Of a stretch of 64,000 nt of DNA, positions 38,772 through 60,157 are shown piece by piece (within the stretch, counting starts at the first letter, position 1; each line of letters starts with the position of its first letter). The stretch comes from Flavobacteriaceae bacterium. GTDB taxonomy: Bacteria; Bacteroidota; Bacteroidia; Flavobacteriales; Flavobacteriaceae. The position numbers and the translations under genes are program-made. The stretch is from contig JAQWGN010000002.1 of the NCBI GenBank assembly GCA_029238215.1, positions 235-64,234 of the forward strand. The letters run 5' to 3'. The notes under the pieces are model-generated. The model did not search any database, was not told the DNA's origin, and worked only from the letters and a program-made list of their open reading frames with translations.

Positions 38772-38800
38772 AAAAAAGCCTCCTTACGGAGGCTTTTTTT
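38772..38800. terminator. Bidirectional hairpin terminator
   Basis: A6-GCCTCC-TTAC-GGAGGC-T7, between the OMP gene and the convergent peptidase gene. Confidence 0.75.
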
Positions 38801-38810
38801 GTCGTTATAG

Positions 38811-38848
38811 TTTTATTCTTTTAGTCTCAATCGATCTTCGCGGTTGGC
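38811..38848 (-). repeat. Resident copy of the 38-bp repeat (the true 3' end of the M28 peptidase gene)
   Basis: Reverse complement GCC AAC CGC GAA GAT CGA TTG AGA CTA AAA GAA TAA. Continuous with the 340-aa ORF. Confidence 0.9.
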
Positions 38849-45337: not shown

Positions 45338-45338
45338 T

Positions 45339-46181
45339 ATGCGTTTTATTGTCCTATTTCTTATCGCCCTACTAACAACTTGTAATTTGAAGGATAAATC
45401 ATCTGAGCGAGCTGTAGCTCGTGTTAATGATCAATACCTTTTGACTTCTGAATTGGCTGCCAATGTTCGAACTACGCTTACAAATTCAGACAGTATAGCA
45501 TCTGCAACTAATTATATCAATACTTGGGCAATAGAACAATTACTCCTTGACAAGGCTGTTTTTAACTTGAACGTACAAAAACAAGAAGAGCTAGAGCGTC
45601 TTATAAAGCGTTACAGAAACGATTTATATATTAAAACCTATCAAGAGGAATGGTTGAAAGCACGTGTTGATACTTTGGTTACACAAGATGAAATAGATGC
45701 GTATTATCAATCCAACAAGAAAAACTTTAAACTACACCAAGACTTGATGCGTGGGCGCTATATTAAGTTGCCTTTGGTAAACTTTAATAAGGAAAGCGTG
45801 AAACGGGCTTTACGAAGGTTTAACGATGATGATCGTACATATTTAGATTCCATTTCATTGCAATTTAATAGTGCGTTACTCAACGATTCTATTTGGTTAA
45901 GACCTCAAACTTTTTTCTCCAGAATTAACCGTCCTACCCCCAATAGTTATAAACCCTATTTGAAAAGTAATCGTTTTTTTGAAATTGAAGATTCTTTAGA
46001 CCTATATTTGGTGTTCGTAGAAGAAGTAAGGCGAAGGAATGAAACGGCACCAATGGTCCATATACGTTCCACCTTAAAACAAATTCTACTTAATAAACGT
46101 AAACTTGATATGATGCGTCGCTTTGACCGTGATATATTGCAGGAAGCTGTAAAGAAAAATGTATTTGAAATCTATGAATAA
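45339..46181 (+). CDS. Lipoprotein, SurA-N-like chaperone-domain protein (function uncertain)
   Basis: 280 aa with lipobox LLTTC. Directly precedes and overlaps the SurA-like PPIase gene. Confidence 0.5.
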   Translation: MRFIVLFLIALLTTCNLKDKSSERAVARVNDQYLLTSELAANVRTTLTNSDSIASATNYINTWAIEQLLLDKAVFNLNVQKQEELERLIKRYRNDLYIKTYQEEWLKARVDTLVTQDEIDAYYQSNKKNFKLHQDLMRGRYIKLPLVNFNKESVKRALRRFNDDDRTYLDSISLQFNSALLNDSIWLRPQTFFSRINRPTPNSYKPYLKSNRFFEIEDSLDLYLVFVEEVRRRNETAPMVHIRSTLKQILLNKRKLDMMRRFDRDILQEAVKKNVFEIYE

Positions 46182-47532
46182 AACTGTTATTTTTTGTTTG
46201 GCTTTGGGTGTCTTTAGTTTGGCACAAGCTCAAGACACAACCACAAGACTTAAAATCGATGGGGTTTCAGCTGTTGTCGGAGATTATGTAATTCTTGATT
46301 CTGATGTTGATAAGGCATATATCGATTTGGAGTCACAGGGAGTATCTACAACGGATATTACCCGCTGCAGCTTGTTGGGTAAGCTTATGGAGGATAAACT
46401 TTATGCACATCATGCCGAGCAGGATAGTATTGAGGTTAGTAACGACGATATTAATAATTATGTAGAACAGACCATAGAGTATTTTGTGCAGCAAATAGGT
46501 AGTATGGATAAGGTTCTGGAATTTTACAAGAAAAAAAGCGAGGAGAGTTTTCGTGCAGAATTGTTTGAGGTCAACAGGGTACAACAGCTTTCACAACAAA
46601 TGCAATCTAAAATTATTGAGGATGTCGAGGTAACTCCAGACGAAGTCAAAGCATTTTTTAATGCCATTCCAAAAGATGATTTACCTGTTTTTGGTTCTGA
46701 ACTTGAAGTTGCTCAAATTGTAATTGAACCAAAAGTTAGTCCAGAAGAAGAAAAACGTATTATCGAGCAGTTAGAAACCATGCGAAATGATGTTTTGGAA
46801 AATGGATCTTCATTTGCATCTAAAGCTATTTTGTATTCTCAAGATCCAGGTTCTCGTTCACGTGGAGGTCGTTATACATTAGATAGAAAGCGCCCTCAGA
46901 TGGTAAAAGAATTTAGAGAGCAAGCATATCGATTGCAGGAAGGCGAGATTTCACAACCTTTTAAAACCGATTTTGGGTGGCATATAGTAACCGTTGATAA
47001 AATTAGAGGACGTCAAATAGACGTACGCCATGTTTTATTAGTACCTACAGTTTCTAGTGCCGCACTAGGTGAGGCACAAAATGAACTTAAACTTATTAAT
47101 AAGCGTGTTAGTGACGGTGAGCTTAGTTTTGCTGCTGCTGCAAGAGAGTTTTCTGATGATAAAATCACTAGAGCAAACGGAGGAGTTTTGATTAACCCTT
47201 CAACAGGAGATACCCGTTTTGAATTAACCAAACTAGACCCGCAACTTTACAACCAAATTCTAAAGCTCGAAGACAACGAAATTTCAATTCCCATTCTGGA
47301 AGAAGATCGATCTGGAAATAAAAAATATAAAATTGTTATGGTTTCAAACCGTTTTGATGAGCATGTTGCTGACTATGCAAAAGACTATGTGCGAATAAAA
47401 GAATTAGCCCTAAAAGAAAAGCAACTGAAGGCTATCGAAAAATGGATGGCTGAAAAGATTGCTGATACCTACGTAAGCTTAAATCGCGCCAATCAATCTT
47501 GTGATTTTGCCAATAACTGGTTAAAGAATTAA
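46159..47532 (+). CDS. SurA-like periplasmic peptidyl-prolyl isomerase/chaperone
   Basis: 457 aa with a signal peptide and a parvulin domain (FKTDFGWHIV). Confidence 0.8.
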   Translation: MYLKSMNKTVIFCLALGVFSLAQAQDTTTRLKIDGVSAVVGDYVILDSDVDKAYIDLESQGVSTTDITRCSLLGKLMEDKLYAHHAEQDSIEVSNDDINNYVEQTIEYFVQQIGSMDKVLEFYKKKSEESFRAELFEVNRVQQLSQQMQSKIIEDVEVTPDEVKAFFNAIPKDDLPVFGSELEVAQIVIEPKVSPEEEKRIIEQLETMRNDVLENGSSFASKAILYSQDPGSRSRGGRYTLDRKRPQMVKEFREQAYRLQEGEISQPFKTDFGWHIVTVDKIRGRQIDVRHVLLVPTVSSAALGEAQNELKLINKRVSDGELSFAAAAREFSDDKITRANGGVLINPSTGDTRFELTKLDPQLYNQILKLEDNEISIPILEEDRSGNKKYKIVMVSNRFDEHVADYAKDYVRIKELALKEKQLKAIEKWMAEKIADTYVSLNRANQSCDFANNWLKN

Positions 47533-47573
47533 AAACTCTTTTTTAAGCTATAGGTAGTTCATTTACAAATACT

Positions 47574-47581
47574 TAATTTTG
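47574..47581 (+). promoter_or_regulatory. Candidate -7 box TAATTTTG for ccsBA
   Basis: TAnnTTTG match 14 nt upstream of the ATG at 47595. Confidence 0.35.
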
Positions 47582-47594
47582 TAAAAAAATCGCT

Positions 47595-50500
47595 ATGAAC
47601 GTAGCTCAAAAGCTTCTTTCTCTACTATTTTCTACCCGTTTAACGGCCCTTCTTTTTGTTCTTTTCTCTGTTGCTATGGGGATTGGAACCTTTGTTGAAA
47701 GCGAACACGATACTGCAACAGCCCGTATCTGGATTTATAATGCTTGGTGGTTTGAGATCATGATGGTTTTTTTTGTGATTAATTTTTTGGGAAACATCAA
47801 AAGATACCGCTTACTGAGATGGGAAAAATGGCCACTGTTGTTACTTCATTTATCTTGGATTTTAATTATTGTTGGAGCGGGAATTACCCGTTATGTCGGA
47901 TATGAGGGAGTTATGCCCATTCGTGAAGGAGAAGATTCCCGTACGTTTTTAACCGAAAAAACATATTTGTCGATATATATTGATGGTGAAATTAACGGCG
48001 AACCTCGTCGAAAACTTTTGGAAGACGATATGTTGTTTTCCAAAGCAGCCAACAATCACTTTGAATGGCGTAGTGATTTTAATAAAATTCCTGTATCAAT
48101 CCAATATAAAAACTTTATTAAAGGAGCCGAAGAAGGTTTGGTTGAAGACCCCAATGGCGCGTTGTACTTTAAAATTGTGGAGGCTGGTGACGGTAACCGT
48201 CATGACCACTACTTGAAGTCGGGTGAAGTAGCAAATATTCACAACATTTTATTTGCTTTTAATGCCCAAACCGATGGTGCAATTAATATCACCTACAAAG
48301 ACGATACATATACGATTGAGTCTCCTTTTTCTGGCACGTTTTTGCGTATGGCTGACCAACAGTCTGGGCAACTTCTTTCAGACACAGAACAACCCCTACA
48401 ATTACGCACGCTCTATTCAACTGCTGGAATGCAATTTGTTTTTCCCGATCCGGCTACAAATGGCTCATATCAAATTATACCTGCAGTAGATTCCGAAAAC
48501 GCACCACAAGATGCGCTTTCTGTCCTTTTGTCAGCGAATGGTGAACTAAAAGAAGTCACTGTTTTGGGTGCAAGAGGTGTTGCTAACGCTCCAACTAAAG
48601 TTTCTGTGGGCGGTTTTGATTTTTGGGTAAAATATGGCTCTAAGGAAGTACCACTCCCATTTTCTATTCGCCTCAACGATTTTATCGCAGCAAAATATCC
48701 AGGGACAGAGAAAAGTTACAGCAGCTTTATGAGCAAGGTTACCGTACTGGATGAGCCTACTTTTGATTACGACATTTATATGAATCATATTTTAAATCAT
48801 AAGGGTTTTCGTTTTTTTCAAGCATCATTTGACCCTGATGAGAAAGGAACTGTATTATCGGTAAACCATGATGGATTGGGTACAGGAGTTACATACATCG
48901 GGTACTTTTTACTTTATGCGGGTTTATTGGGAATCATGTTTTTTGGAAAGACACGATTTAAAAAATTAGCTAAAATGCTTGAGGATATTCGTGTTAAAAA
49001 AGCAACGCTTACCATATTAGTACTTCTTGCTTTATCCCCTGTTGTTGCACAGCATCAACATGCCAATCAAAATCATTCTATTGATTCCATACTACAAGCA
49101 GAGGCTTATGACGCCGAACAAGCTGCAAAGTTTGGCGCATTAATTATTCAAGATGCTGGTGGACGGATGAAACCTGCCAATACTTTTGCCTCCGAACTAG
49201 TCCGTAAAGTGAGTAAATCAGATCATTACAAAACACTAGACGCAAACCAGGTACTACTCTCTATCTCTCAAAATCCATTATTGTGGTATCAAGTTCCGTT
49301 TATCTACCTAAAACGCGGGAATGATAGTTTGCGGAACTTACTAGGAGTTGATAAAAAGGCTAAATATGCAGCATTTGCCAATTTTTTTAATGAAACAGGG
49401 TCCTATAAATTAGCGCCACTACTTGAAGGTGCATACAAATCAGCTACACCCAATCAGTTTCAAAAAGATTTTATTGAAACGGATCGAAAAGTAAATTTGC
49501 TTTTTTCTGCACTTGAAGGTAAAATCCTTCGTGTTTTTCCCGTACCAAACGATATAAATAACCGGTGGATTGCCCCACAAGAAGTTCCAGAAACTGATTT
49601 TGAGGGGGTCGATTCGCTTTATGTCAATAATGTTTTGCCTTTGTATTTTACCTCATTACGTCAAGGAAAAACCACACAAGATTATACACAGGCTGATCAG
49701 TTACTTGAAAGCTTAAAAGGCTATCAAAATAAATACGGCGCTGAAGTGATTCCTTCTAAAAAGCAAATAGAGGCAGAGCTGCTTTACAACAAGTACGATA
49801 TTTTTAAACGCCTTTTTAGTTGGTATATGTATGCCGGAACACTAATGTTCTTTGTGCTTATTGCTCAGATGCTTTATAACGTTCGTTTCTTACGCCTCAT
49901 TGTTAAGTCTTGTGTTGTTGTTATTGCTGGGCTGTTTGTGCTCCACACGGCTGGTTTAGCTGCTCGTTGGTACATTTCTGGACACGCACCTTGGAGCGAT
50001 GCCTATGAGTCTATGATTTATGTTGCTTGGGCTACAATGGGTATGGGGCTTGCCTTTGGACGTAAATCCATGCTTACTATAGCGGCAACAGCTTTTGTAG
50101 CCTCCATGATTTTAATGATTGCGCATTGGAATTGGATGGATCCCGAAATTGCCAATTTAGTACCTGTGCTTGATAGTTATTGGCTAATGATACACGTGGC
50201 TGTTATTGTTGGGAGTTACGGTCCGTTTGCACTGGCCATGATTTTAGGAATTATAGCCATGTTTTTAATGTTGATTACCACCAAGAAATCTGCGGAAAAA
50301 ATGCGACTGCATATTGCCGAGCTTACTGTGGTAAATGAACTTGCTTTAACGGTTGGTCTTATCATGCTAACGATTGGAAACTTCTTGGGAGGTCAATGGG
50401 CCAATGAAAGTTGGGGTCGTTACTGGGGATGGGATCCCAAAGAGACATGGGCATTGATTAGTATTTTGGTGTACGCATTTGTACTGCATATGCGTTTGGT

Positions 50501-50723
50501 TCCAGGGTTACGTGGTAAATGGATTTATAGCTTGATGTCCGTATTGGCTTTTGCTAGCATTATGATGACGTATTTTGGAGTCAACTTCTACCTTACAGGA
50601 TTGCATTCGTATGCAAGCGGAGATAAGGTGATAACCCCTAATTTTGTTTATTATTCGCTAGTATTTGTAGCGGTATTAGGAATTGCATCATATGGAAAAG
50701 CAAAAAAATACTTTTCGCGTTAA
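47595..50723 (+). CDS. ccsBA: Fused cytochrome c biogenesis protein CcsB(ResB)-CcsA (System II)
   Basis: 1042 aa. A ResB-like N-terminal half is joined to a C-terminal CcsA with the tryptophan-rich WGRYWGWDPKETWA (WWD) heme-handling motif and conserved His residues. Confidence 0.88.
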   Translation: MNVAQKLLSLLFSTRLTALLFVLFSVAMGIGTFVESEHDTATARIWIYNAWWFEIMMVFFVINFLGNIKRYRLLRWEKWPLLLLHLSWILIIVGAGITRYVGYEGVMPIREGEDSRTFLTEKTYLSIYIDGEINGEPRRKLLEDDMLFSKAANNHFEWRSDFNKIPVSIQYKNFIKGAEEGLVEDPNGALYFKIVEAGDGNRHDHYLKSGEVANIHNILFAFNAQTDGAINITYKDDTYTIESPFSGTFLRMADQQSGQLLSDTEQPLQLRTLYSTAGMQFVFPDPATNGSYQIIPAVDSENAPQDALSVLLSANGELKEVTVLGARGVANAPTKVSVGGFDFWVKYGSKEVPLPFSIRLNDFIAAKYPGTEKSYSSFMSKVTVLDEPTFDYDIYMNHILNHKGFRFFQASFDPDEKGTVLSVNHDGLGTGVTYIGYFLLYAGLLGIMFFGKTRFKKLAKMLEDIRVKKATLTILVLLALSPVVAQHQHANQNHSIDSILQAEAYDAEQAAKFGALIIQDAGGRMKPANTFASELVRKVSKSDHYKTLDANQVLLSISQNPLLWYQVPFIYLKRGNDSLRNLLGVDKKAKYAAFANFFNETGSYKLAPLLEGAYKSATPNQFQKDFIETDRKVNLLFSALEGKILRVFPVPNDINNRWIAPQEVPETDFEGVDSLYVNNVLPLYFTSLRQGKTTQDYTQADQLLESLKGYQNKYGAEVIPSKKQIEAELLYNKYDIFKRLFSWYMYAGTLMFFVLIAQMLYNVRFLRLIVKSCVVVIAGLFVLHTAGLAARWYISGHAPWSDAYESMIYVAWATMGMGLAFGRKSMLTIAATAFVASMILMIAHWNWMDPEIANLVPVLDSYWLMIHVAVIVGSYGPFALAMILGIIAMFLMLITTKKSAEKMRLHIAELTVVNELALTVGLIMLTIGNFLGGQWANESWGRYWGWDPKETWALISILVYAFVLHMRLVPGLRGKWIYSLMSVLAFASIMMTYFGVNFYLTGLHSYASGDKVITPNFVYYSLVFVAVLGIASYGKAKKYFSR

Positions 50724-50913
50724 CCCTCGTTGGTGGTTGTATTCTGCAGGTGGTTTGCTGCTTATTGGTACGGGGCTGAGTGTTTTGGGTGAAGCCATAC
50801 TTGCTAAGGGTAGTGGTGAGGCATGGTTTTTGGTTGGTGCACTAGCAATAACATTAGTTAACACAGGAATATGTTTAGTAGCAGGAGCGGTTATTATTCG
50901 CTTAAAAAAATAG
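50692..50913 (+). CDS. Small 2-TM membrane protein (hypothetical)
   Basis: 73 aa from the ATG at 50692, with two clear hydrophobic helices. Overlaps the ccsBA 3' end by 32 nt. No homology recognised. Confidence 0.35.
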   Translation: MEKQKNTFRVNPRWWLYSAGGLLLIGTGLSVLGEAILAKGSGEAWFLVGALAITLVNTGICLVAGAVIIRLKK

Positions 50914-51524
50914 GATTTTTATTTCTTTTTATGGGAGGTACTGTCTTTGCTCAAGAGCAAAAAGGGGGTAGTGCATTGCCTATACTTAGTACGCCAAAAA
51001 GTGACTATGGACTACTACAGCCTGAGGAAAAAAATGAAGACTATTCGTTTTTAGATAGACCAAAACCAGCTCCACCGATGCTTTCGGAGGGGGAACAATT
51101 TATTGACCCTGGAAAAAAGTATTTGAAAAAACTTAAACGGGAAGGAACAGTTTCTAAAGACACCTATTTTGGTGATGTCTATTTGGGTGATATTATCACT
51201 ATATCGTCTCATGTAAAACTCCTATTACGAGACTTTGGAGCTGAAGATGGAGATCATGTTCGCGCTTTTATAAATGACAAAGAATTTATTTCGGTAATTC
51301 CTTTAAAGAATACATTCTTTGAATTACAGGTTCCACTCAAAGAAGGGTTCAATAAAATTGACTTTATGGCTCTTAACCAAGGAGCGTTGTATCCCAACAC
51401 GGCAGAATTGAGAATGTACGATGTCTATGGGAATTTATTACTAAAACATAATTGGAACTTGTCTACAGGCTCAAAGGCTACAGTTATTTTGGTTAAAGAG
51501 GGTAATGAGATTAAAACTGAATAA
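50871..51524 (+). CDS. Secreted hypothetical protein
   Basis: 217 aa with the signal-like segment KKIGFLFLFMGGTVFAQ. No family recognised. Confidence 0.5.
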   Translation: MFSSRSGYYSLKKIGFLFLFMGGTVFAQEQKGGSALPILSTPKSDYGLLQPEEKNEDYSFLDRPKPAPPMLSEGEQFIDPGKKYLKKLKREGTVSKDTYFGDVYLGDIITISSHVKLLLRDFGAEDGDHVRAFINDKEFISVIPLKNTFFELQVPLKEGFNKIDFMALNQGALYPNTAELRMYDVYGNLLLKHNWNLSTGSKATVILVKEGNEIKTE

Positions 51525-51533
51525 AGAGTAAAA

Positions 51534-52622
51534 TTAATAGTCCGCTTTTAATGCATTCAAAAACCCATAAAATGCCGGTTTTGGTTTTAGGTTTTCATCA
51601 TAAATGCAGGGCCAGTCTTTCAGTTTAAAAAATCGATTTATCCAAGTATCTCTATCGTTGAAGCCCCAAAAAGTAATACCATACTGTTGGGCTTTAGGGA
51701 CAGTTGTTTGATATATTTCAACCAACTCCGCATATTTTTTTGCTTGATCCATTCTCATGGCATCGGTTAATTCGTTATAAAGCTGAACACCTCCACCTTT
51801 GCTGTCATCGTGGGTGTTGAAAATAATATCCACTTCAGAAAGATGAATTTGCAATCCTGTGTCTGCGGCTCTTTTAAGGGTGTGAGCAATTACTTCGTTT
51901 GGGGTATCCATACGGATATGCATTTGAAAGCCAATTCCTGAGATGGGAACACCGCGTCGTTGAAAATCCTCAACCATTTTCATCATGGAATTGAACTTTA
52001 GGGTATCTCGTTCAATATTAAAATCGTTGTAAAATAAAACTGCGTCAGGGTCCGCCTCGTGTGCATAGCGGAAGGCTTTCTCGATATAGGTTTCACCCAT
52101 AGTCTTATACCAAATACTTTCAGTTCTATAACCAGCTCCTTTGGTATTGAACCCTTCGTTGACAACATCCCAGCCATGTACTTTGCCTTTGTATCGACTT
52201 ACATACTTTTGGATGTATTCCTTCATGAATTTGTCCAACCATACTGGATCCTTTTTTGCCTTTTTCTCAACCCACCATGGAGTGGCACTATGCCATATTA
52301 GTGTATGTCCAAACAGGCGTTGGTTGTTTTTTTTGGTGTAGGATACAATGCTATCTACTCTGTCCCAATAGTACACGTTGGGGCGTGGTGAAATTTGATA
52401 CATTTTCATGTCACTTCCAGCGGTATAGCTGTTAAAATGGTGTTGTTGTATCTTTTGTAATGGCGCATCATTCATAAAGGGAATAAATCGCAGCGATGAG
52501 CCAATTGGAAAATCGGATACTTTTTTTAGGGATTCGACTTCTGTTTGCTGTGTTTGCGCCGTTAAAAGGAATGTAGAGATTAAAAAGACGAATAGAACAG
52601 TTGATTTATTCATTAAATACAT
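51534..52622 (-). CDS. GH10 endo-1,4-beta-xylanase
   Basis: 362 aa with a signal peptide. GHTLIWH, WDVVNEG (acid/base Glu) and ITFWGF motifs are typical of GH10. Confidence 0.85.
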   Translation of the reverse strand: MYLMNKSTVLFVFLISTFLLTAQTQQTEVESLKKVSDFPIGSSLRFIPFMNDAPLQKIQQHHFNSYTAGSDMKMYQISPRPNVYYWDRVDSIVSYTKKNNQRLFGHTLIWHSATPWWVEKKAKKDPVWLDKFMKEYIQKYVSRYKGKVHGWDVVNEGFNTKGAGYRTESIWYKTMGETYIEKAFRYAHEADPDAVLFYNDFNIERDTLKFNSMMKMVEDFQRRGVPISGIGFQMHIRMDTPNEVIAHTLKRAADTGLQIHLSEVDIIFNTHDDSKGGGVQLYNELTDAMRMDQAKKYAELVEIYQTTVPKAQQYGITFWGFNDRDTWINRFFKLKDWPCIYDENLKPKPAFYGFLNALKADY

Positions 52623-52746
52623 TTAAATGATTTTGAAAATTATGTATTGATTAATCTCAAAAGAAAGGATTCCAGATTTTTTCATAAAGTTAGTATTTAA
52701 ATAAACATTGGCTATTATGCAGGTTCAATTTTCATACCTTTACTTT

Positions 52747-55356
52747 ATGAAAAATATTATTCTTTTGTTCCTTGGAGTACTAGTCGCTCCTTTTGTTATT
52801 CATGTTCAGGCCCAATCTAGCCATTGGGAGAGCGTGGTTCTTCCGGGTGATCAATGGGAGTATACCGTTCCTACGTCGCAATTACCAAACAACTGGTATA
52901 CGATTAGTTACAATGCATCTACTTGGGCAACTGGTCCTTCTGGAATTGGTTACGGCGATGGCGATGATGCTACAGATATCAACCAAGCTACTTCGGTGTA
53001 TATGCGTAAAACGTTTCAGATTAATGACCTTTCCCAGTTCAATAGAGTCGTTTTAGATATCGACTATGATGATGCCTACATTGCTTATGTAAATGGCGTA
53101 GAAGTTGGGCGTAATTTACTATCAGGAGATAATATTCCATACAATAGCCTTGCTGAAGGATATCATGAGGCAATGCTCTTTCAAGGGTATGCTCCAGATC
53201 GTGTTTTTATAGATAAAAACTTACTTGTAAACGGCACAAATATTATTGCGGTCCAAGTTCATAATCATACTGCAGACTCCTCAGACATGTCTGCATTACC
53301 TGTTATTTCTTTAGAAGTTTTTGGTAATACGCTAATTTACAACGGAACGCCAACTTGGTTTCAAGAACCCGACCCTGTCCCATTTCAAACAAACTTCACT
53401 TCTTCTAATTTGCCAATCGTATTGCTAGACACTGATGGAAATCAAGAGATTCCTAACGAGCCAAAAATTGGTGCACAAATGAAAATTATCAAGCGCCCAG
53501 AAAATGCACGGAATTTGGTTGCTGATTCAAACAATCCAGACTATCTAAATTTTGATGGACCAATTCAAATTGAAGTTCGCGGATCAAGTTCATCCTTATT
53601 TTCAAAAAAACAATTTGCACTTACTACTTACGATACCGCTGGGGAAAAAGATAACGTAACCCTTCTTAATTTGCCTAAAGAAAACGATTGGATTTTAAGT
53701 GGTTTGGCTTTTGATACAACATTTGTTCGTGATTATGTGAGTTATAAATTATCGAATATGATTGGTCAATACGCTTCTAGAGGGGAATATTGTGAATTGG
53801 TCTTAAACGGACAATATCAAGGCATTTATATGTTACTCGAAAAAATTAAAGCCGATGATAACCGTATTGATATAAAGAAACTGAAACCAGACGACACGTC
53901 ACTGCCTCAAATTACGGGAGGTTATGTTACCAAAGCTGATAAAATTGAGGGAGAAGAAATATTTGCATGGTCTATGGCTACACCAAATGGTTGGGGTGTT
54001 AATTTCGCTCATGAAAGCCCAAAAGCTGATGATATTACCAGTGAACAATCGAGCTATATACAAAATACTTTTGAAGCCCTAGCGGCTACAGCTTCTGAGT
54101 CAAACACCTCAATTACAAGCGGATATCCATCGGTAATAGATGTTCCGTCTTTTGTAGATTTTATGATACTAAATGAGTTTGCTTCAAACCCTGATGCCTA
54201 CCAGTTTAGCACATATTTCCATAAAGACAGAAGGGGTAAATTACGTGCAGGCCCTGTGTGGGATTTTAACTTGACGTATGGGAACGACTTGTTTTTTATG
54301 GGATTTGATAGAAGTGCATTTGATGTTTGGCAGTTTCAAGTAGGGAATAGGGGTGCAACTTTTTGGACTGACCTTTTTAACGATCCAACATTTAAGTGTT
54401 ATATGTCAAAAAGATGGGTTGCATTAACTGCTGTAAACCAGCCCTTACACCCAGATTCGATTATTGCATTAATCGATGAAACGGTTGCGTACATAGATGA
54501 AGCAGTTGCAAGACAGCAGCAGGTTTGGAATATAAATATTTCACACAACACTCGGATTAATGCGGTAAAGGACTTTGTAATTGACCGGGTTAATTGGATT
54601 TCCAACAGGCTTATTGATACCTCTTTATGTGAATCAGTTACTACGCCGCCACTTGTGATCACTAAAATTAATTATCATCCCCTTGATGAAACTATTGATG
54701 ATTCTGATGAATATGAATTTATTGGGATAACAAATAACAGTGGAGTAGAACAGGACCTTACAGGGGTATATTTTGGAGGTACTGGACTTTCATATCAGTT
54801 TCCTGCAGGATTTAAAATAGAGGCTGGTTCAGAAGTTGTTATTGCAAACAACGCAGTCAAATTTGAGTCTAGATACGGTTTCTCATCCTTTGATGAGTTT
54901 TCAAGAAATTTATCAAATAAAAGCCAAGAAATTAGTTTATTAGATGCTTTTGGAAACCTGATTGACAAGGTTGTATATGAAGATAGTGCTCCCTGGCCCG
55001 ATGCAGATGGAAGTGGTAGTTTTTTGAGACTAGCAAGCATCATGAGCGACAATGCCCTTGCTGAAAGTTGGGTTGCTAGTGTTGATTTTAATCCGTTATC
55101 CAACAAAGAAGTTTTTGAAAAGAACACCTTACTCGTTTATCCAAATCCAGTTAGCACGTATTTAAATGTAAGTATTACCAACAATGAAGTAATCAAATCT
55201 GTTGAAGTCCGAAATTTACTTGGACAAAAGGTAATGCAGCTTGCGCCAAATACCAAAAGAGTGAAAATGGATATGGCACATTTAGATAATGGAATTTACT
55301 TTATCCATATGCAGCTTAACAAGGGTACGGTTACAAAAAAAGTTCTAAAGAAATAG
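52747..55356 (+). CDS. CotH kinase-like protein with a lamin-tail (LTD) domain and a T9SS C-terminal sorting domain
   Basis: Begins at the ATG at 52747 (MKNIILLFLGVLVAPFVIHVQAQ). The CotH region includes FVRDYVSYKLSNMIGQYASRGEYCELVLNGQYQGIYMLLEKI. The LTD-like region includes ITKINYHP...EFIGITNNSG. The C-terminus LLVYPNPVSTYLNV...GIYFIHMQLNKG is T9SS type A. Confidence 0.8.
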   Translation: MKNIILLFLGVLVAPFVIHVQAQSSHWESVVLPGDQWEYTVPTSQLPNNWYTISYNASTWATGPSGIGYGDGDDATDINQATSVYMRKTFQINDLSQFNRVVLDIDYDDAYIAYVNGVEVGRNLLSGDNIPYNSLAEGYHEAMLFQGYAPDRVFIDKNLLVNGTNIIAVQVHNHTADSSDMSALPVISLEVFGNTLIYNGTPTWFQEPDPVPFQTNFTSSNLPIVLLDTDGNQEIPNEPKIGAQMKIIKRPENARNLVADSNNPDYLNFDGPIQIEVRGSSSSLFSKKQFALTTYDTAGEKDNVTLLNLPKENDWILSGLAFDTTFVRDYVSYKLSNMIGQYASRGEYCELVLNGQYQGIYMLLEKIKADDNRIDIKKLKPDDTSLPQITGGYVTKADKIEGEEIFAWSMATPNGWGVNFAHESPKADDITSEQSSYIQNTFEALAATASESNTSITSGYPSVIDVPSFVDFMILNEFASNPDAYQFSTYFHKDRRGKLRAGPVWDFNLTYGNDLFFMGFDRSAFDVWQFQVGNRGATFWTDLFNDPTFKCYMSKRWVALTAVNQPLHPDSIIALIDETVAYIDEAVARQQQVWNINISHNTRINAVKDFVIDRVNWISNRLIDTSLCESVTTPPLVITKINYHPLDETIDDSDEYEFIGITNNSGVEQDLTGVYFGGTGLSYQFPAGFKIEAGSEVVIANNAVKFESRYGFSSFDEFSRNLSNKSQEISLLDAFGNLIDKVVYEDSAPWPDADGSGSFLRLASIMSDNALAESWVASVDFNPLSNKEVFEKNTLLVYPNPVSTYLNVSITNNEVIKSVEVRNLLGQKVMQLAPNTKRVKMDMAHLDNGIYFIHMQLNKGTVTKKVLKK

Positions 55357-55360
55357 GAGA
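55309..55360 (+). repeat. Resident copy of a 52-bp perfect direct repeat (last 15 codons, stop and 4 nt of the CotH gene)
   Basis: ATGCAGCTTAACAAGGGTACGGTTACAAAAAAAGTTCTAAAGAAATAGGAGA is identical to 58080-58131. Confidence 0.95.
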
Positions 55361-55455
55361 CTACTATTTTTACTTGATAGTTTTATTGTTTTTTATACAG
55401 GGATAGTAAAGCTTTTAGAAAACCAATATCTATCTATGTCAAGTTTATATAAATC

Positions 55456-55487
55456 AAAAAGGGCTGCACATACGTGCAGCCCTTTTT
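55456..55487. terminator. Bidirectional hairpin terminator between the CotH gene and the convergent T9SS cargo gene
   Basis: A5-GGGCTGCAC-ATAC-GTGCAGCCC-T5. Confidence 0.75.
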
Positions 55488-55531
55488 GATATGAAATCAC
55501 TTAGCCTAAGTGAGTTTATGCATTTTAATGC

Positions 55532-58000
55532 TTATTGTTTAATTATTTTGGCAACTCCAATTCCAATTCCATTGGCATTTTTCAGCTGTAAAATATAAAC
55601 GTTGTTTGGTAGGCTTGATAAATCAATAACAGAAGCGGTACTGCTAATCATTACTTTTCCTGTAATATCATAAATCAAAGCTTTGGAGAAGTTTGAGTTG
55701 ATTTGGATATGCGATGATGTTGGATTGGGATAAAAATCAACATCAATCTTAAAATCTTCTAAAGAAGCTGTTTGACATACTATATTCACAACTTGAGCCC
55801 TTGATATAGAGTTGTTATTTTCGTCAGTAAACGTCCATATAACTCCAAATGTTTCTACACTTGGATCTATTGGAAAGCACTTGTCGTTTATCGCTGTTAC
55901 AGTTGAATGATAATCTGATATTCCCTCTGTAGGGATAGTAAGGCCATGTAATTGTTGACCTTCACAAATTTCATAGGTTACACTTTCTATAACATCTGGA
56001 ACTAAAGGAGGCTGCGTATCATTAACCCCATCAAATTCATAAGCGCCAATGTCTGCAGTTCCGAATCTGTAATATCCCCTTTGATCTTTATTTAATGCAT
56101 CTGAAGATCCTGCATCAATCAGAAAAGAGTCATTTTCTAATGCAACATACGGAATATTAGTTCCAAATATTTGTAGCGTTTCTTTGAGTCCAGAGTCATC
56201 TCCTGTTAATAATGTTTGTGATGTAATTGAACCACTTATTCCATCAGTATTTGATAAAAAAGAATTGATGATTGTAATATCGTTAGAAGAACCCTTAACT
56301 TCTGTAGGACTATTGTTCTCTAAAACAGAATTTTTAATCACAGCGGTTGTATAGGCAGTAATTACTGCAGGCTGATTGGTATCACTAGCAACGTTGTTTT
56401 TAAATGTTGAGCTTTCGATGTTTAGAGTTCCATCATGGGCAGGAATATAAAAAAGACCACTTTTTGTGCTATTTTCAAAAAATGTACAATTAATAATTTC
56501 TACTTCACCTGTGCCATTAGGGATAAATATTAATTCAGCATTAGTAGCTGTGTTTTGATAAAATGTGCAATTTTTAAGTGAAAATATAATATCAGACTGT
56601 TCTTTACTATTGGGAAAATAAAATAGATTATCAGAATTATTATTATTATGAAAATATGAATTTGTAATTTTCAAAGCCCCTTTACTATTAGGCTTGTAAA
56701 TAATTTCCTTAGAATTAAAATTTGTGAAAGTAAGGCCATCAATTGTTATTGATCCGTCCCTATAGCTATAAATCATTCGGTTTGAGCCAATATTAACTCC
56801 ATCAATTGTTAGCAAATTTGCGCCAGGGCCTAATATGGTGATATTTACATCATTATTATGATTTACCGCTCCGTCAACACTAATTACACCACTTAATTCT
56901 CTTAAATCTATTATTGCATTACTGCAGCCATAGTTGTTTGCTTCTGTTAATGCATTTTTAAATGAACCAGCTCCTGAAGCATTCAAATTTTCAACCAAAA
57001 AATATCCAGACGTGCTAATGCTTTTTTCATCAGTATCGTTCGTTATAGTGCTTATTGTGCTTTCAGAAACAACGATAGAAGCTAGGTCAAAGTCTATAGT
57101 GTTACCTATTGTAGCATTATTTTTTAAATCTATAGTTAGCCAATAAACATTGTCTCCCGAACTAAGCAATTCATTTAATTCAAAAGTTATTTCTGAAGAC
57201 GGATTAATTGATCCTATTAGGTTTTCGTCAATAAAATTGGCACTGCGATACAAATTAATTTTTGAGATTTCTTCACAATAGTTTTGTGAGTTGTTTAAAA
57301 AAACTAATTTTTCTAGTTCTAATGGGGAAAGACTTCCATTTGTTGTGACTGTAGCTTTTAATGCTATTTGATTGTCAAAGCCAGGGTTTAAATTACACGA
57401 TGCAGTTTGAGTTCCTGCAGACAAAAATTCCATGTCTGATTCAGCATATATTCTCAATTCATCAATGCCAATACCCAGATCCCCAGACTCTGGTAAATCA
57501 CAATTTCCAACAAAATCAATCTGAACGTCATTCAAATTAGAAAAATCTGAAAGATCAATTGTATTTTTCTTCCATTCAGATGAGTTTGTAGTTATAGTAT
57601 GCACCAACAAACCATTAACATAAACTGCCAGCGTTTCCAGACCATCTGGATGAATGTTGTAAAAAGACAGGTATGGATCTTGCGTAGAAGAAAGATCAAT
57701 GCCCTTTAAAGTCAATTTTACGTCAATAAAAAAATCATATCCATCCATCCCAGAATTTAAATATGCAAATCCATTTCCATTATATGGGGGAAAGCCATCC
57801 CATTGAAAAGACATATTTTGTCTAATGGTTTCCTCTGAATTGTGGTACCAGCGTAATAAGCCATTACGAGCATTCCCATCTTCAGCTATTGGGGTTTCTA
57901 TTGTAAATGCAATAGATTCAGTTAGAGTGTTTAGTGTATCGAAATTTTCAGTCTGTGCAAATATTACAGTTGAAAATAAAAGGATTATTGATTTTTTCAT
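55532..58000 (-). CDS. T9SS-secreted protein with a right-handed beta-helix / choice-of-anchor-Q-like region
   Basis: 822 aa with signal MKKSIILLFSTVIFAQ. The central part has repeated N.T/F.NN beta-helix turns and DQRGYYRFGTADIGAYEF. The C-terminus DFYPNPTSSHIQIN...NVYILQLKN is a T9SS sorting domain. Confidence 0.7.
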   Translation of the reverse strand: MKKSIILLFSTVIFAQTENFDTLNTLTESIAFTIETPIAEDGNARNGLLRWYHNSEETIRQNMSFQWDGFPPYNGNGFAYLNSGMDGYDFFIDVKLTLKGIDLSSTQDPYLSFYNIHPDGLETLAVYVNGLLVHTITTNSSEWKKNTIDLSDFSNLNDVQIDFVGNCDLPESGDLGIGIDELRIYAESDMEFLSAGTQTASCNLNPGFDNQIALKATVTTNGSLSPLELEKLVFLNNSQNYCEEISKINLYRSANFIDENLIGSINPSSEITFELNELLSSGDNVYWLTIDLKNNATIGNTIDFDLASIVVSESTISTITNDTDEKSISTSGYFLVENLNASGAGSFKNALTEANNYGCSNAIIDLRELSGVISVDGAVNHNNDVNITILGPGANLLTIDGVNIGSNRMIYSYRDGSITIDGLTFTNFNSKEIIYKPNSKGALKITNSYFHNNNNSDNLFYFPNSKEQSDIIFSLKNCTFYQNTATNAELIFIPNGTGEVEIINCTFFENSTKSGLFYIPAHDGTLNIESSTFKNNVASDTNQPAVITAYTTAVIKNSVLENNSPTEVKGSSNDITIINSFLSNTDGISGSITSQTLLTGDDSGLKETLQIFGTNIPYVALENDSFLIDAGSSDALNKDQRGYYRFGTADIGAYEFDGVNDTQPPLVPDVIESVTYEICEGQQLHGLTIPTEGISDYHSTVTAINDKCFPIDPSVETFGVIWTFTDENNNSISRAQVVNIVCQTASLEDFKIDVDFYPNPTSSHIQINSNFSKALIYDITGKVMISSTASVIDLSSLPNNVYILQLKNANGIGIGVAKIIKQ

Positions 58001-58079
58001 GGTTCAAATTTAACTAATTTTTAATGGCTCCCTTGATTTCTACAACAATGTTTAGTTTTATTTCAGTATTGTTTAGGTA

Positions 58080-58131
58080 ATGCAGCTTAACAAGGGTACG
58101 GTTACAAAAAAAGTTCTAAAGAAATAGGAGA
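58080..58131 (+). repeat. Orphan copy of the 52-bp repeat (displaced CotH 3' end), 151 nt upstream of the sulfatase gene
   Basis: Perfect match to 55309-55360. An in-frame TAG at 58074-58076 just upstream shows it is not part of a longer ORF. Confidence 0.95.
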
Positions 58132-58282
58132 TCATGGCTGGGTTACGATGTATTCCTAGTAAGGCTCCAGAATCTAATTTTAACGTCAAAAAGCATATAT
58201 TTTTTTAATTTCTAGTTGAAAATTCAAATAAATTATAACCCAAACATGCTAAGGTTATTATTTAGTTGTTAGTTTTACAACG

Positions 58283-59674
58283 ATGAGACTACACGTTGCG
58301 ATTTTCTGTTTTTTTTCAATTCTATCTTTTGGTCAATCACATCCAAACATCCTTGTAATTCATATTGACGACTTAGGATACCATGACCTGAGTATTCATG
58401 GTTCTAAAACGTATCAAACTCCACATATCGATACGCTTGCGAGGCAATCAGTCTCTTTTGCAAAAGCATATGCAAATTACCCAAGATGCGTACCCTCCAG
58501 ATTTTCTATGATAACGGGGAATTACCCGATACAAAATGGAAATATTCCAGATGATGGATTTAAAATTAAAAATATAGCTACAAACAAAAACTTCATTAAA
58601 TCATTTAATGCGATAGGTTATCAGACGGCTTATTTTGGTAAATGGCATTTAGGAGATGAACAAAGTTTACGCGACTTTGGATTTCAATTTAGCTTTGGTG
58701 CAGGAAAAGCTGGCTCACCAATTAGTTTCATCTATCCCTTTAATATTTCCAAGGGAAAAGGGAAGAACAATAAAAAACCAATTCCAGATGTTGATGGCGT
58801 AAGTACTGAAGGTGATTACCTTACTGACGTCATGACAGATCAAGCAATTAATTACTTAAGGCAGCATGATTCATTGACACCATTTATGTTGATGCTTTCA
58901 TACTATGCTGTTCATCAGCCTATTGAAGCAAAATCTAATGATATTGAACTTAACCGTTTAGAAATAGATGCTGTTGACTATGGCAACCAACCCGAATATA
59001 TTCAAGAAGGTACAGGACGAACAAAAATGCGTCAGGATAATCCCGCTTATGCCGCCATGGTAGAAAACTTGGACTATAACATTGGTAAACTTTTAGCTCA
59101 TTTAGACTTTAGTAATGTTTTGGAAAATACAATAATTATTTTTTCATCCGATCATGGAGGATTATCTAATGATGGCTATAACAAAAGGCGGTTGGCTACC
59201 TCAAATTTTCCGTTGCGTGCTGGAAAAGGGTGGCTATACGATGGAGGGATAAAAGTTCCATTATTTATTAAATGGCAAAATAAATTTAAACCTCGAACTG
59301 AAGATACTTCTATTGTAACGCTTATGGATATTTTTCCAACACTGTTAGATATAACTGCCAAAATTGATTTGGGCGTGGACGGAAAAAGCATGCTACCCGT
59401 ACTTTATTCAAAAAAGAAATGGCAAAATCGAACGGTCTACTGGCATTCTGAAAAAGCAAGGCCTAAAAGTACCGGAGACACAAAATCATCTGCAATACGA
59501 AAAGGAAAGTACAAGCTCATTCATTGGTTTGAATCCAATAAGATTGAGCTCTATAATATGGAAAAAGACCCTTATGAAAGACATGATTTAGCCAATGAAA
59601 AACCAAAATTACGACTAGCACTTTTGTCCGATTTGAATGATTGGAAATCTGAAATGGGGCAAGATAAATACTGA
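58283..59674 (+). CDS. Sulfatase (formylglycine-dependent, Cys-type)
   Basis: 463 aa with a signal peptide. Contains IHIDDLG, the CVPSRFSMITG (C-x-P-x-R) formylglycine motif and SSDHGG. Confidence 0.88.
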   Translation: MRLHVAIFCFFSILSFGQSHPNILVIHIDDLGYHDLSIHGSKTYQTPHIDTLARQSVSFAKAYANYPRCVPSRFSMITGNYPIQNGNIPDDGFKIKNIATNKNFIKSFNAIGYQTAYFGKWHLGDEQSLRDFGFQFSFGAGKAGSPISFIYPFNISKGKGKNNKKPIPDVDGVSTEGDYLTDVMTDQAINYLRQHDSLTPFMLMLSYYAVHQPIEAKSNDIELNRLEIDAVDYGNQPEYIQEGTGRTKMRQDNPAYAAMVENLDYNIGKLLAHLDFSNVLENTIIIFSSDHGGLSNDGYNKRRLATSNFPLRAGKGWLYDGGIKVPLFIKWQNKFKPRTEDTSIVTLMDIFPTLLDITAKIDLGVDGKSMLPVLYSKKKWQNRTVYWHSEKARPKSTGDTKSSAIRKGKYKLIHWFESNKIELYNMEKDPYERHDLANEKPKLRLALLSDLNDWKSEMGQDKY

Positions 59675-60157
59675 TTTTTTTGCTGCATTAGCGCTTGCTT
59701 CATTTTAACTTTTTGTTGATTTATTCTTGACTCAAGGAGGATTATTACTTAATCCTAAAAAGCGCCGCTTTGAAAATAGTACTAACAAAAAAACACTAAT
59801 GCAGACTTGGCGTTTTTTCTTATTGCGCGGTTTATTCGTGACCCAAACTTATGGTAGTTCAAACTTTTTGGATGAAATCAATAAATTGATTCAAAAAAAA
59901 ACTAAATTCGTTAATTATTAGCTGAACCAACTTGAAACGTGTTTATACGTTCGGTGTGTTGAGGATTAAGAAGTCAAACTCAACTTTAGTCTATCGTCTA
60001 GGCTCCCGAGATTTAAAGCTAACTTTTGTTTTTATTCAAAGTCTTTTACCTTCAGAAGCCTTTTGTTTCCAACATCCTGATTATCATCGTAGGGTTTAGT
60101 TTTTTCATATTCTAATAAAGCTATTTATATAACATTTTATTTAAGATAATATGAAAA

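What the first reader, a model, noticed from the sequence alone, without database searches (positions are those of the whole stretch)
55309..58131. Cassette 3: a 2.7-kb insert carrying one T9SS cargo gene, bracketed by a perfect 52-bp direct repeat of the CotH gene 3' end
ATGCAGCTTAACAAGGGTACGGTTACAAAAAAAGTTCTAAAGAAATAGGAGA forms the last 15 codons, stop and 4 nt of the CotH gene (55309-55360). It recurs perfectly at 58080-58131, where it is a stranded fragment with an in-frame TAG just upstream. Between the copies lie 2719 bp: a bidirectional terminator and a single convergent gene for an 822-aa beta-helix T9SS protein with its upstream region. No transposase, integrase or terminal inverted repeats are visible. 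Perfect identity over 52 bp argues for a recent event.
Basis: seen in the sequence. Interest (0 to 1): 0.7.

Follow-up and report, generated by a model that had tools for sequence, protein, structure and literature searches.

The report
Stranded gene-end copy beside inserted gene
A 52-base copy of the end of one secreted-protein gene sits stranded on the far side of a neighbouring 2.7-kb gene; it is most likely an ordinary recombination scar from an old gene gain in a marine flavobacterium, not a new kind of mobile cassette.

Summary
A perfect 52-bp direct repeat lies at 55309-55360 and 58080-58131. It brackets 2719 bp holding a bidirectional terminator and one 822-aa T9SS-tailed gene.

It is not an assembly artefact. 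Four other assemblies carry the same structure. It is not demonstrably recent. A lineage 1.3% diverged has it with five differences between the copies. No empty site was found.

CotH relatives at 85-87% identity lose homology exactly at the stop codon. The sulfatase block occurs at 96% identity in another genomic context. Homologues of the 822-aa gene never travel with a CotH fragment.

There is no recombinase and there are no terminal inverted repeats. The repeat ends 4 nt past the stop codon. A second insert in the window has the same layout, and its two copies differ only by synonymous changes.

Best reading, about 50%: one-sided homologous recombination displaced a CotH 3' end. The route was a single crossover of a circularised fragment or homology-facilitated illegitimate recombination.

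Rivals: a decayed e14/icd-type integrase island, an unknown insertion with a long target duplication, or a duplication followed by deletion.

Low to moderate interest.

The parts
52747..55356 (+). CotH kinase-like / lamin-tail / T9SS C-terminal-domain gene. Alternative starts are 52708 and 52717; gene callers used 52717, giving 879 aa.
   Evidence: Pfam CotH 4.9e-52, LTD 5.5e-12, Por_Secre_tail 1e-12. TIGR04183 6.5e-14. An identical 879-aa product is called on L017 and L018.
55229..55242 (+). AGGTAATGCAGCTT inside the CotH C-terminal domain. This is the upstream member of a 9-bp ATGCAGCTT pair spaced 75 bp apart (55234 and 55309).
   Evidence: It is identical to 58075-58088, which is the 5 nt left of copy 2 plus its first 9 nt. 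ATGCAGCTT occurs only three times in the window. AGGTA has a frequency of about 1e-3.
55309..55360 (+). Copy 1 of the 52-bp direct repeat: the last 15 codons of CotH, TAG, and GAGA.
55361..58079 (.). The 2719-bp interposed segment: terminator, 822-aa gene, and 79 bp upstream of that gene.
   Evidence: No TIRs. No similar DNA in plasmid or phage collections.
55453..55490 (.). Bidirectional intrinsic terminator between the convergent CotH and 822-aa genes.
   Evidence: 17-bp stem, 4-nt loop; -30.2 and -32.1 kcal/mol; z -8.6 and -7.0.
55532..58000 (-). 822-aa secreted multi-domain protein with a T9SS C-terminal sorting domain, from a rare family.
   Evidence: PF18962, BNR_assoc_N and choice_anch_Q hits. 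Only 7 representatives below E 1e-30 among 1.84 billion. GC3 0.219, z -2.1. AF2 model and GH87-like hit.
58080..58131 (+). Copy 2 of the 52-bp repeat: a stranded CotH 3' end with an in-frame TAG at 58074-58076.
   Evidence: In L019 it differs from the window at 58097 (T>C) and has one extra A.
58139..58194 (+). Possible degenerate copy (B') of the B repeat that lies upstream of the sulfatase block in L062.
   Evidence: MAFFT aligns it to the B copies. Local alignment to the L062 upstream copy was reached by 4 of 1000 shuffles. An nhmmer profile of B does not detect it. This is weak evidence.
58227..59900 (+). Sulfatase block (gene 58283-59674). It is found at 96.4% identity in a different genomic context in L062.
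   Evidence: Pfam Sulfatase 2.3e-51. A recombination breakpoint near 58500 is seen in L017: 2 differences over 45000-58500 against 61 over 58500-59793.
59724..59794 (+). B repeat: a decayed tRNA-Arg 3'-end-like fragment, probably an old attachment-site relic. The sister strain L017 diverges from the window at 59793.
   Evidence: nhmmer E 4e-21 against other B copies. The L017 B copy aligns to reverse-complemented tRNA-Arg at 24 of 31 positions, reached by 0 of 2000 shuffles..
59833..59900 (+). C repeat (GTGACCCAAACTTATGGTAGTTCAAAC...). In relatives it occurs in roughly 107-nt tandem units with a terminator-like hairpin.

Best explanation
The 52-bp repeat is the scar of a recombination-mediated gene gain that used homology on one side only.

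Two haplotypes of the same or a very close species shared the CotH gene but differed downstream of its stop codon. One had CotH followed by a terminator and the convergent 822-aa gene. The other had CotH followed directly by the sulfatase block.

DNA from one haplotype entered the other by one of two routes. The first is a single (Campbell-type) crossover of a circularised fragment that carried a short piece of the CotH 3' end. The second is homology-facilitated illegitimate recombination: a homologous crossover on one side and an illegitimate joint on the other.

Either route leaves an intact CotH, then the non-shared DNA, then a displaced duplicate of the CotH 3' end. That duplicate sits against the older CotH/sulfatase junction.

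Copy 2 is therefore a dead relic. It may once have been at least 132 bp (55229-55360), later shortened by a 75-bp slippage deletion between two ATGCAGCTT repeats.

Shown:
- the anatomy;
- its presence in all sampled close relatives;
- the absence of recombinase and inverted repeats;
- the end of inter-lineage homology at the stop codon;
- active homologous and microhomology-mediated recombination at this locus.

Inferred:
- the two parental haplotypes, neither of which was observed;
- the route of entry;
- which side was the newcomer.

The repeats could still support RecA-dependent loss of the 2771-bp unit. No such deletion was seen.
For: 1. The right edge of the repeat falls 4 nt after the CotH stop codon. 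Homology between this CotH and its 85-87% relatives (L058; L027, L059-61) also ends at the stop codon, and three different downstream contexts follow. A repeat made of shared homology predicts this edge. A random staggered cut does not.

2. A second insert in the same window has the same layout. It runs from 38088 to about 38810 and holds an OMP beta-barrel gene convergent to the M28 peptidase gene. It is bracketed by a duplicate of the last 11 codons plus stop of the peptidase, ending 2 nt past the stop. The two copies differ at 3 nt, all synonymous (CGG/AGA, TTA/CTA). They therefore diverged as working gene ends in separate lineages before being joined.

3. Recombination is visibly active at this locus.
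- L017 is nearly identical to the window up to about 58500, then 4.7% different within the sulfatase.
- The sulfatase block occurs at 96.4% identity in another context.
- In L027 and L059-61, CotH is fused at residue 281 to a C repeat through a 7-nt microhomology, AGTTCAA.

4. There is no recombinase, no TIR and no att-like motif in the 2719 bp. Flanks of 822-aa homologues lack any CotH fragment.

5. AGGTA left of copy 2 matches CotH at 55229-55233 (p about 1e-3). This fits a longer homologous segment of 132 bp.

6. There is experimental precedent. In E. coli conjugation, 56 of 60 integrations of DNA with one-sided homology were single crossovers of re-circularised molecules. These duplicated 109-950 bp of the homologous gene end. 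True HFIR was rarer (PMC3240628). Displacement of 3' ends by incoming modules is described for T6SS effector and rhs loci (PMC5361080).
Against: - Neither parental haplotype (CotH-sulfatase without the 822-aa gene, or CotH-822 without copy 2) was found in any collection searched.
- 52 bp is short for efficient RecA-dependent crossover. The 132-bp version rests on a 5-nt match.
- The illegitimate joint cannot be checked for microhomology without the parents.
- The 822-aa gene is AT-richer than the core genes. Its ultimate source is therefore not a sister strain, and an earlier separate acquisition must be assumed.
- Evidence from the second insert is by analogy only.
- An e14/icd-type integrase element predicts the same repeat edge and the same synonymous-only differences.
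Confidence: 0.5

Rival explanations
1. A decayed or non-autonomous integrative element of the e14/icd type. A tyrosine-recombinase element whose attP carried a replacement CotH 3' end integrated into the end of CotH. The repeat would be attL/attR. The integrase and other genes were later deleted, or the unit is a cis-mobilisable element served in trans.
For: - A direct repeat covering the 3' end and stop codon of the target gene, with the displaced fragment at the far end, is the classic layout of e14 in icd with the icdC pseudogene (PMC13626634).
- The neighbourhood is an integration graveyard. B repeats are decayed tRNA-Arg 3' ends.
- Sister strain L017 carries a 493-aa tyrosine integrase next to a perfect 44-nt tRNA-Arg fragment, 1.7 kb to the right.
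- An 822-aa homologue (L069) sits between tRNA-Arg and its terminator.
- Scattered partial tRNAs of this kind are known from tycheposon islands (bioRxiv 10.1101/2020.12.28.424599).
Against: - There is no integrase, excisionase or fragment of one. Only 171 bp and 79 bp of non-coding DNA lie outside the single cargo gene.
- The only integrase seen nearby is tied to a tRNA-Arg site, not to CotH.
- The 822-aa gene family never carries a CotH-like attP elsewhere.
- No excision polymorphism was seen in five assemblies.
- The second insert would need an independent element, trimmed just as cleanly, aimed at a different gene.
Confidence: 0.2
2. In-situ insertion of foreign DNA with a long target-site duplication. 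A staggered break with roughly 52-nt overhangs was filled in around captured DNA, or an unknown insertion enzyme produces duplications of about 50 bp.
For: - Perfect identity of the two copies in the window.
- No homology beyond the repeat on either side.
- The insert is a compositional outlier.
- The window holds two other short inserts bracketed by 26-60-nt repeats.
Against: - Known transposable elements make duplications of 2-15 bp and carry inverted ends or a transposase (background knowledge). None is present here.
- Repeat edges fall 4 nt and 2 nt after a stop codon in two independent inserts. That is unlikely for random cuts in intergenic spaces of about 150 bp, roughly 0.03 each.
- The two copies in the second insert differ only synonymously. 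An in-situ duplication with one dead copy does not predict that.
- The AGGTA match is unexplained under this model.
Confidence: 0.12
3. A tandem duplication of a segment starting in the CotH 3' end, followed by deletion of nearly all of the second copy. Only 52 bp of that copy remains.
For: It needs no foreign DNA and no special enzyme. A slippage deletion between ATGCAGCTT repeats is already suggested.
Against: - It needs a second deletion that ends exactly 4 nt after the duplicated stop codon.
- It does not explain the low GC3 of the 822-aa gene.
- It does not explain the different downstream contexts in relatives.
- It does not explain the synonymous-only differences in the analogous second insert.
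Confidence: 0.1
4. Assembly artefact: a chimeric or collapsed contig of a metagenome-assembled genome.
For: The window comes from a MAG contig of 64.7 kb, Flavobacteriaceae bacterium.
Against: The same order and both repeat copies occur in four other assemblies made with different assemblers (L001/L017, L018, L019, L020). In L019 and L020 the copies differ, so they cannot have been confused during assembly.
Confidence: 0.02

Closest known systems
Single-crossover (Campbell-type) integration of a re-circularised fragment, and homology-facilitated illegitimate recombination (PMC3240628; de Vries & Wackernagel 2002 and Prudhomme et al. 2002, as cited there)
   Same: Foreign DNA lies next to a gene end that served as the only homology. 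A direct duplication of that gene end flanks the insert. No recombinase is needed, and junctions fall at or near the limit of homology.
   Different: The experimental duplications were 109-950 bp. Here 52 bp remain, possibly from 132 bp originally. Classical HFIR usually deletes recipient DNA rather than duplicating it. The parental molecules are not known here.
C-terminal displacement / orphan 3' ends in rhs, CDI and T6SS effector loci (PMC5361080 and Jackson et al. 2009, cited there)
   Same: An incoming module recombines through a conserved part of a secreted-protein gene. The old 3' end is pushed downstream as a stranded fragment. The loci are cargo genes of a secretion system.
   Different: In those systems the new tip differs from the old and brings a new toxin and immunity pair. 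Here the new and old CotH ends are identical, and the added gene is a separate convergent gene, so CotH itself does not diversify.
e14 prophage in icd with the icdC 3' pseudogene (Hill et al. 1989; PMC13626634)
   Same: The functional gene end and a stranded duplicate bracket the inserted DNA. The repeat runs to the end of the coding sequence. Recombination between the copies restores a single gene.
   Different: e14 is 15 kb, encodes its integrase and excises on SOS induction. The present unit is 2.7 kb with one cargo gene and no recombinase.
Islands with scattered partial tRNA attachment sites (tycheposons; bioRxiv 10.1101/2020.12.28.424599)
   Same: The DNA just right of the finding holds decayed tRNA-Arg 3' fragments. 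In a sister strain it holds an integrase beside a perfect tRNA-Arg fragment, the pattern reported for tycheposon islands.
   Different: The 52-bp repeat is not tRNA-derived. The integrase-linked sites lie outside the finding.

Membership tests
Transposable element with target-site duplication (IS, Tn or MITE) | A transposase gene, or terminal inverted repeats for non-autonomous copies | tested here: not met
   Pfam and NCBIfam find only T9SS, BNR_assoc_N and choice_anch_Q domains. The score for the insert ends against each other was reached by 1356 of 2000 shuffles.
Transposable element with target-site duplication (IS, Tn or MITE) | A short duplication (2-15 bp) and multiple copies of the element | tested here: not met
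   The repeat is 52 bp. The insert is single-copy in the window. It has no DNA match in the plasmid or phage collections.
Integrase-mediated island at a gene 3' end (e14/icd type) | A direct repeat that covers the 3' end of the target gene and restores it | tested here: met
   Copy 1 completes CotH. Copy 2 is the stranded duplicate.
Integrase-mediated island at a gene 3' end (e14/icd type) | A tyrosine or serine recombinase encoded within the repeat-bounded element | tested here: not met
   The segment has one ORF of 822 aa and no recombinase domain. Non-coding parts total 250 bp.
Integrase-mediated island at a gene 3' end (e14/icd type) | The same attachment segment travels with the element in other genomes, or excision polymorphism is seen | tested here: not met
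   No CotH-like fragment lies next to 822-aa homologues in L021-25 and L069-72. All five close assemblies are filled.
Cis-mobilisable element (att-flanked, recombinase supplied in trans) | Flanking sites recognised by the integrase of a related element | not testable with these tools
   The only integrase seen nearby (L017) lies beside a tRNA-Arg fragment, not a CotH segment. Recognition would need an experiment.
Integron gene cassette | An attC recombination site at the cassette end, plus an integron integrase with attI and Pc nearby | tested here: not met
   The repeat derives from the target gene and is not an imperfect palindrome. No inverted repeat was found at the ends. No integrase was found among the ORFs scanned from 47.6 to 63.5 kb. 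Other ORFs of the window were not all scanned.
One-sided-homology recombination scar (single crossover or HFIR; C-terminal displacement) | The repeat equals the segment shared by both parents, and its edge is the limit of homology | tested here: met
   Homology with the 85-87% CotH lineages ends at the stop codon. The repeat ends 4 nt after it.
One-sided-homology recombination scar (single crossover or HFIR; C-terminal displacement) | Both parental haplotypes exist, and there is microhomology at the illegitimate joint | tested here: inconclusive
   Neither haplotype was found in the genome, metagenome or protein-context searches. The joint cannot be evaluated without them.

The most novel reading that the evidence does not exclude
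Marine Flavobacteriaceae may have a recombinase-less class of single-gene cassettes. These would insert at the 3' ends of resident genes with long duplications (about 45-55 bp) of the gene end. They would move as small circles, either by host recombination or by a tyrosine integrase acting in trans. The result would be an integron-like exchange of T9SS cargo and outer-membrane genes. Two inserts with this exact layout lie in one 64-kb window, and integrase/att relics lie next door.
Probability: 0.07. Interest if true: 0.7.

Novelty: new member of a known kind. Interest (0 to 1): 0.27.

Why it matters
If the best reading holds, this is a clean natural example of how accessory secreted-protein genes enter a flavobacterial chromosome without any mobile-element machinery. 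The only trace is a short displaced gene end. Such scars could be mined to date and orient gene gains in metagenome-assembled genomes.

It also shows that a perfect short repeat is not evidence of recency. The wider locus is a mosaic of gene-sized blocks, repeats and decayed tRNA-Arg attachment sites. That makes it a useful marker of strain-level variation in this uncultured lineage.

It does not open a new mechanism unless circle junctions or many more such inserts are found.

Tried and rejected
**Searches for an empty site**
- The genome-contig scan with CotH gave a best hit of 59% identity with no synteny.
- The metagenome-contig scan gave an 87% relative on a 2.2-kb contig.
- Context look-ups of 88% and 87% CotH clusters gave no CotH-sulfatase adjacency. 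Look-ups of 97%, 85% and 82% sulfatase clusters gave none either.
- The look-up caps are now exhausted.

**Exact look-up of the window's sulfatase**
- It is not on record.

**Does the 822-aa gene travel with a CotH fragment?**
- No.

**Phage or plasmid origin**
- No DNA match in either collection.
- No hit in viral contigs for the repeat or for the C-repeat core.

**RNA and sequence features**
- Rfam shows only sub-threshold hits on the terminator.
- No tRNA lies near the finding.
- No terminal inverted repeats were found.

**Similarity of either flank to the CotH-downstream DNA of L058 and L059**
- Neither 55361 onward nor 58132 onward is significantly similar. It stays undecided which flank is native.

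**B' at 58139-58194 as a copy of the B repeat**
- Support is weak: 4 of 1000 shuffles against one copy, and an nhmmer profile does not detect it.

**GH10-sulfatase adjacency in L066 as an 'empty' state**
- Rejected. That GH10 is only 22-24% identical to the window's GH10.
Full report
**Observation**

The 52-mer ATGCAGCTTAACAAGGGTACGGTTACAAAAAAAGTTCTAAAGAAATAGGAGA occurs exactly twice in the window, at 55309-55360 and 58080-58131. Both copies are on the + strand with no mismatch. No match appeared in 100 dinucleotide shuffles (family D2). Identity stops sharply on both sides.

Copy 1 is the last 15 codons (MQLNKGTVTKKVLKK), then TAG, then GAGA, of a gene with CotH, lamin-tail and T9SS C-terminal domains. 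Copy 2 is intergenic, with an in-frame TAG at 58074-58076.

The 2719 bp between the copies hold two features:
- A 17-bp-stem hairpin at 55453-55490 that folds on both strands at -30 and -32 kcal/mol.
- One gene on the minus strand (55532-58000) for an 822-aa protein with a signal-peptide-like start and a T9SS sorting domain.

The AlphaFold model is of moderate quality, with pLDDT 70. It is consistent with a strand-rich repetitive core, and its best PDB match is a GH87 catalytic domain at low TM-score. 'Beta-helix' is therefore plausible but not established.

There is no recombinase domain and there are no terminal inverted repeats. The window comes from a 64.7-kb contig of an uncultured Flavobacteriaceae MAG.

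**The structure is not an artefact and is not demonstrably recent**

The same gene order and both repeat copies are present in four other assemblies:
- L001/L017 (ERZ27289248)
- L018 (ERZ23488175)
- L019 and L020 (Logan DRR337545 and DRR337544)

L019 differs from the window at 99 of 7856 aligned positions, or 1.26%. Its two copies are not identical. Copy 1 has C>T at 55315, C>A at 55320 and A>G at 55321. Copy 2 has T>C at 58097 and one extra A.

At each variable site the other three sequences agree. The duplication therefore predates the split of these lineages.

About 0.65 changes are expected in 104 bp along one lineage. Zero changes in the window lineage is unremarkable. Perfect identity over 52 bp does not date the event.

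**No empty site was found**

- The genome collection holds no close relative; the best CotH is 59% identical and lacks synteny.
- Metagenome and protein-context searches gave two lineages with CotH at 85-87% nucleotide identity: L058, and L027 with L059-61.
- In both, homology with the window ends at the CotH stop codon (55356).
- The two lineages share about 30 nt of different downstream sequence and then diverge from each other. L058 continues into a 218-aa ORF. L059 continues into a TonB-dependent receptor.
- Neither lineage has the 822-aa gene or the sulfatase downstream of CotH.

It is left open for more distant ones.

**The surroundings are a mosaic**

- The sulfatase block (58227-59900) is 96.4% identical to a block in L062. 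There it lies between an MFS transporter and other sulfatases.
- Sulfatases at 85% and 82% identity lie in yet other contexts.
- L017 is almost identical to the window from 45000 to about 58500, with 2 differences. It then differs at 61 positions up to 59793. This marks a homologous-recombination breakpoint inside the sulfatase.
- Three assemblies end between 58441 and 58583.

Right of the sulfatase lie repeats that recur at block boundaries in relatives:
- The B repeat is at 59724-59794. Its L017 copy aligns to the reverse complement of the tRNA-Arg(ACG) 3' end at 24 of 31 positions, reached by 0 of 2000 shuffles.
- The C repeat is at 59833-59900. In relatives it forms roughly 107-nt tandem units with a terminator-like hairpin.

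L017 diverges from the window at 59793. It carries a 493-aa tyrosine integrase next to a perfect 44-nt tRNA-Arg fragment. In L062 the B repeat flanks the sulfatase on both sides. In the window, 58139-58194 may be a degenerate upstream copy, but the support is weak.

In L027 and L059-61, CotH is truncated at residue 281. It is fused there to a C repeat through the 7-nt microhomology AGTTCAA. Illegitimate recombination has therefore demonstrably acted on this gene in a relative.

**The inserted gene**

Full-length relatives are rare. There are seven clusters in the 5.8-billion-protein search, and seven representatives below E 1e-30 among 1.84 billion.

Those whose contexts could be read lie in unrelated places:
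- beside an HTH gene and a TonB receptor (L021);
- beside an AraC-type regulator (L022-25);
- between an intact tRNA-Arg and C/hairpin repeats (L069-72).

None has a CotH-like fragment nearby.

The gene's GC3 of 0.219 is the second lowest among 47 ORFs in the window, z -2.1. This is consistent with foreign ancestry. No similar DNA is in the plasmid, phage or viral-contig collections.

**Two details bear on mechanism**

First, the 5 nt left of copy 2 (AGGTA) equal the 5 nt left of the only other ATGCAGCTT in the window, at 55234 and 75 bp upstream in CotH. The chance of this is about 1e-3. It suggests copy 2 was once at least 132 bp (55229-55360) and lost 75 bp by slippage between the 9-bp repeats.

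Second, another insert in the window has the same architecture. An OMP beta-barrel gene (38168-38743) lies convergent to an M28 peptidase gene. A stranded duplicate of the peptidase's last 11 codons plus stop lies on its far side, next to tRNA-His. The shared identity there extends only 2 nt past the stop codon.

The three nucleotide differences between those copies are all synonymous (CGG/AGA, TTA/CTA). The two copies therefore diverged while each was a working gene end. This points to two alleles brought together by recombination. It does not point to a duplication made in place with one dead copy.

**Interpretation**

I conclude, with about 50% confidence, that the repeat is a scar of gene gain through homology on one side only.

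- Two haplotypes shared CotH and differed from its stop codon onward.
- A fragment entered by one of two routes: a single crossover of a circularised molecule carrying a short CotH 3' segment, or a homologous crossover plus an illegitimate joint.
- The result was CotH, then the non-shared DNA, then a displaced CotH 3' end against the older junction.

The first route is the commonest outcome seen experimentally with one-sided homology. It duplicated 109-950 bp of the gene end (PMC3240628). Displaced 3' ends are also well known in rhs, CDI and T6SS effector loci (PMC5361080).

The evidence cannot say whether the 822-aa gene or the sulfatase block, with copy 2 at its left end, was the newcomer.

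**Rivals**

- The main rival, at about 20%, is a decayed or trans-mobilised integrase element of the e14/icd type (PMC13626634). The att relics and the integrase next door make this credible. The absence of any recombinase remnant in a 2.7-kb single-gene unit weakens it. So does the lack of the same att segment elsewhere.
- An unknown insertion process with a roughly 50-bp target duplication is at about 12%. It is disfavoured because both repeats end within 2-4 nt of a stop codon, and by the synonymous-only differences in the second insert.
- A duplication followed by deletion is at about 10%.
- An assembly artefact is effectively excluded.

**Verdict**

The claims of recency and of a mobile cassette are not supported.

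This is a new example of a known kind of recombination scar, in a strongly mosaic locus. Interest is low to moderate.

A residual chance of about 7% remains that such inserts form a real class of recombinase-less cassettes. Junction-read searches and a genome-wide survey would test that.

Noticed in passing
window 38028-38087 and 38789-38848 (insert about 38088-38810; tRNA-His at 37932-38006): A second single-gene insert has the same architecture. An OMP beta-barrel gene (38168-38743) lies convergent to an M28 peptidase gene. On its far side is a stranded copy of the peptidase's last 11 codons plus stop (ANREDRLRLKE*). The 3 nt differences between the copies are all synonymous.
   Followed up: partly
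window 59724-59900; L062 3950-4200 and 5700-5930; L017 19876-20082; L027 1-148; L069 3189-3289: A family of intergenic repeats marks block boundaries in this lineage. The B repeat resembles a decayed tRNA-Arg 3' end. The C repeat (GTGACCCAAAC...) forms roughly 107-nt tandem units with a terminator-like hairpin (ATTCCCA...TGGGAAT). There is no Rfam match.
   Followed up: partly
L017 17083-22004 (the window equivalent diverges after 59793): A sister strain (99.2% identical over 52001-59793) diverges from the window after 59793. There it carries two unknown ORFs, two C/hairpin units and a perfect 44-nt tRNA-Arg(ACG) 3' fragment. A 493-aa tyrosine integrase (Arm-DNA-bind_5, Phage_int_SAM_5) follows. 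The far end is off the contig.
   Followed up: partly
window 58227-59900; L062 4205-5879: The sulfatase block is 96.4% identical to one in a different genomic context, where the B repeat flanks it on both sides. In L017 the 3' two-thirds of the sulfatase is 4.7% diverged while the 13 kb to its left is nearly identical. This indicates a recent recombination tract.
   Followed up: partly
L027 1-200; L059 126-300; L060 227-420; L061 1-60: In an 85%-identity lineage, CotH is truncated at residue 281 and fused to a C repeat through the 7-nt microhomology AGTTCAA. This is seen in four contigs from different samples.
   Followed up: yes
window 25750-25803 and 26775-26830: A perfect 26-nt palindromic terminator (AAAGGCGTCCAATTGGACGCCTTTTT) is repeated on both sides of a TPR gene (26087-26788). 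It extends to a 54-nt inverted repeat at 78% complementarity. That gene has the lowest GC3 in the window (0.209, z -2.4). tRNA-Glu lies at 25392-25464.
   Followed up: no
L021 3649-3684/3780-3828 and 6427-6462/6458-6506: In the contig of a 52% homologue of the 822-aa gene, two pieces of an HTH gene recur at 92-96% identity about 2.7 kb downstream. They bracket a TonB-dependent receptor gene, and the second copy lacks about 100 bp. The contig ends soon after, so this may be a paralogue.
   Followed up: no
L069 14-88 and 539-3004: A 55% homologue of the 822-aa gene lies between an intact tRNA-Arg(ACG) and the hairpin/C repeats. In L017 those repeats directly follow the tRNA-Arg fragment. The homologue is therefore itself an integrase-less islet at a tRNA site.
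   Followed up: partly
window 55315-55321 (L019 equivalent): In L019 the functional CotH end carries three clustered non-synonymous changes (MQLNKG to MQFKEG). Its stranded copy keeps the ancestral residues. It also has C at 58097, as in the 85-87% outgroups (GGC).
   Followed up: partly
window 291-689: A tmRNA gene with tag peptide GENNYALAA lies at the start of the window.
   Followed up: no
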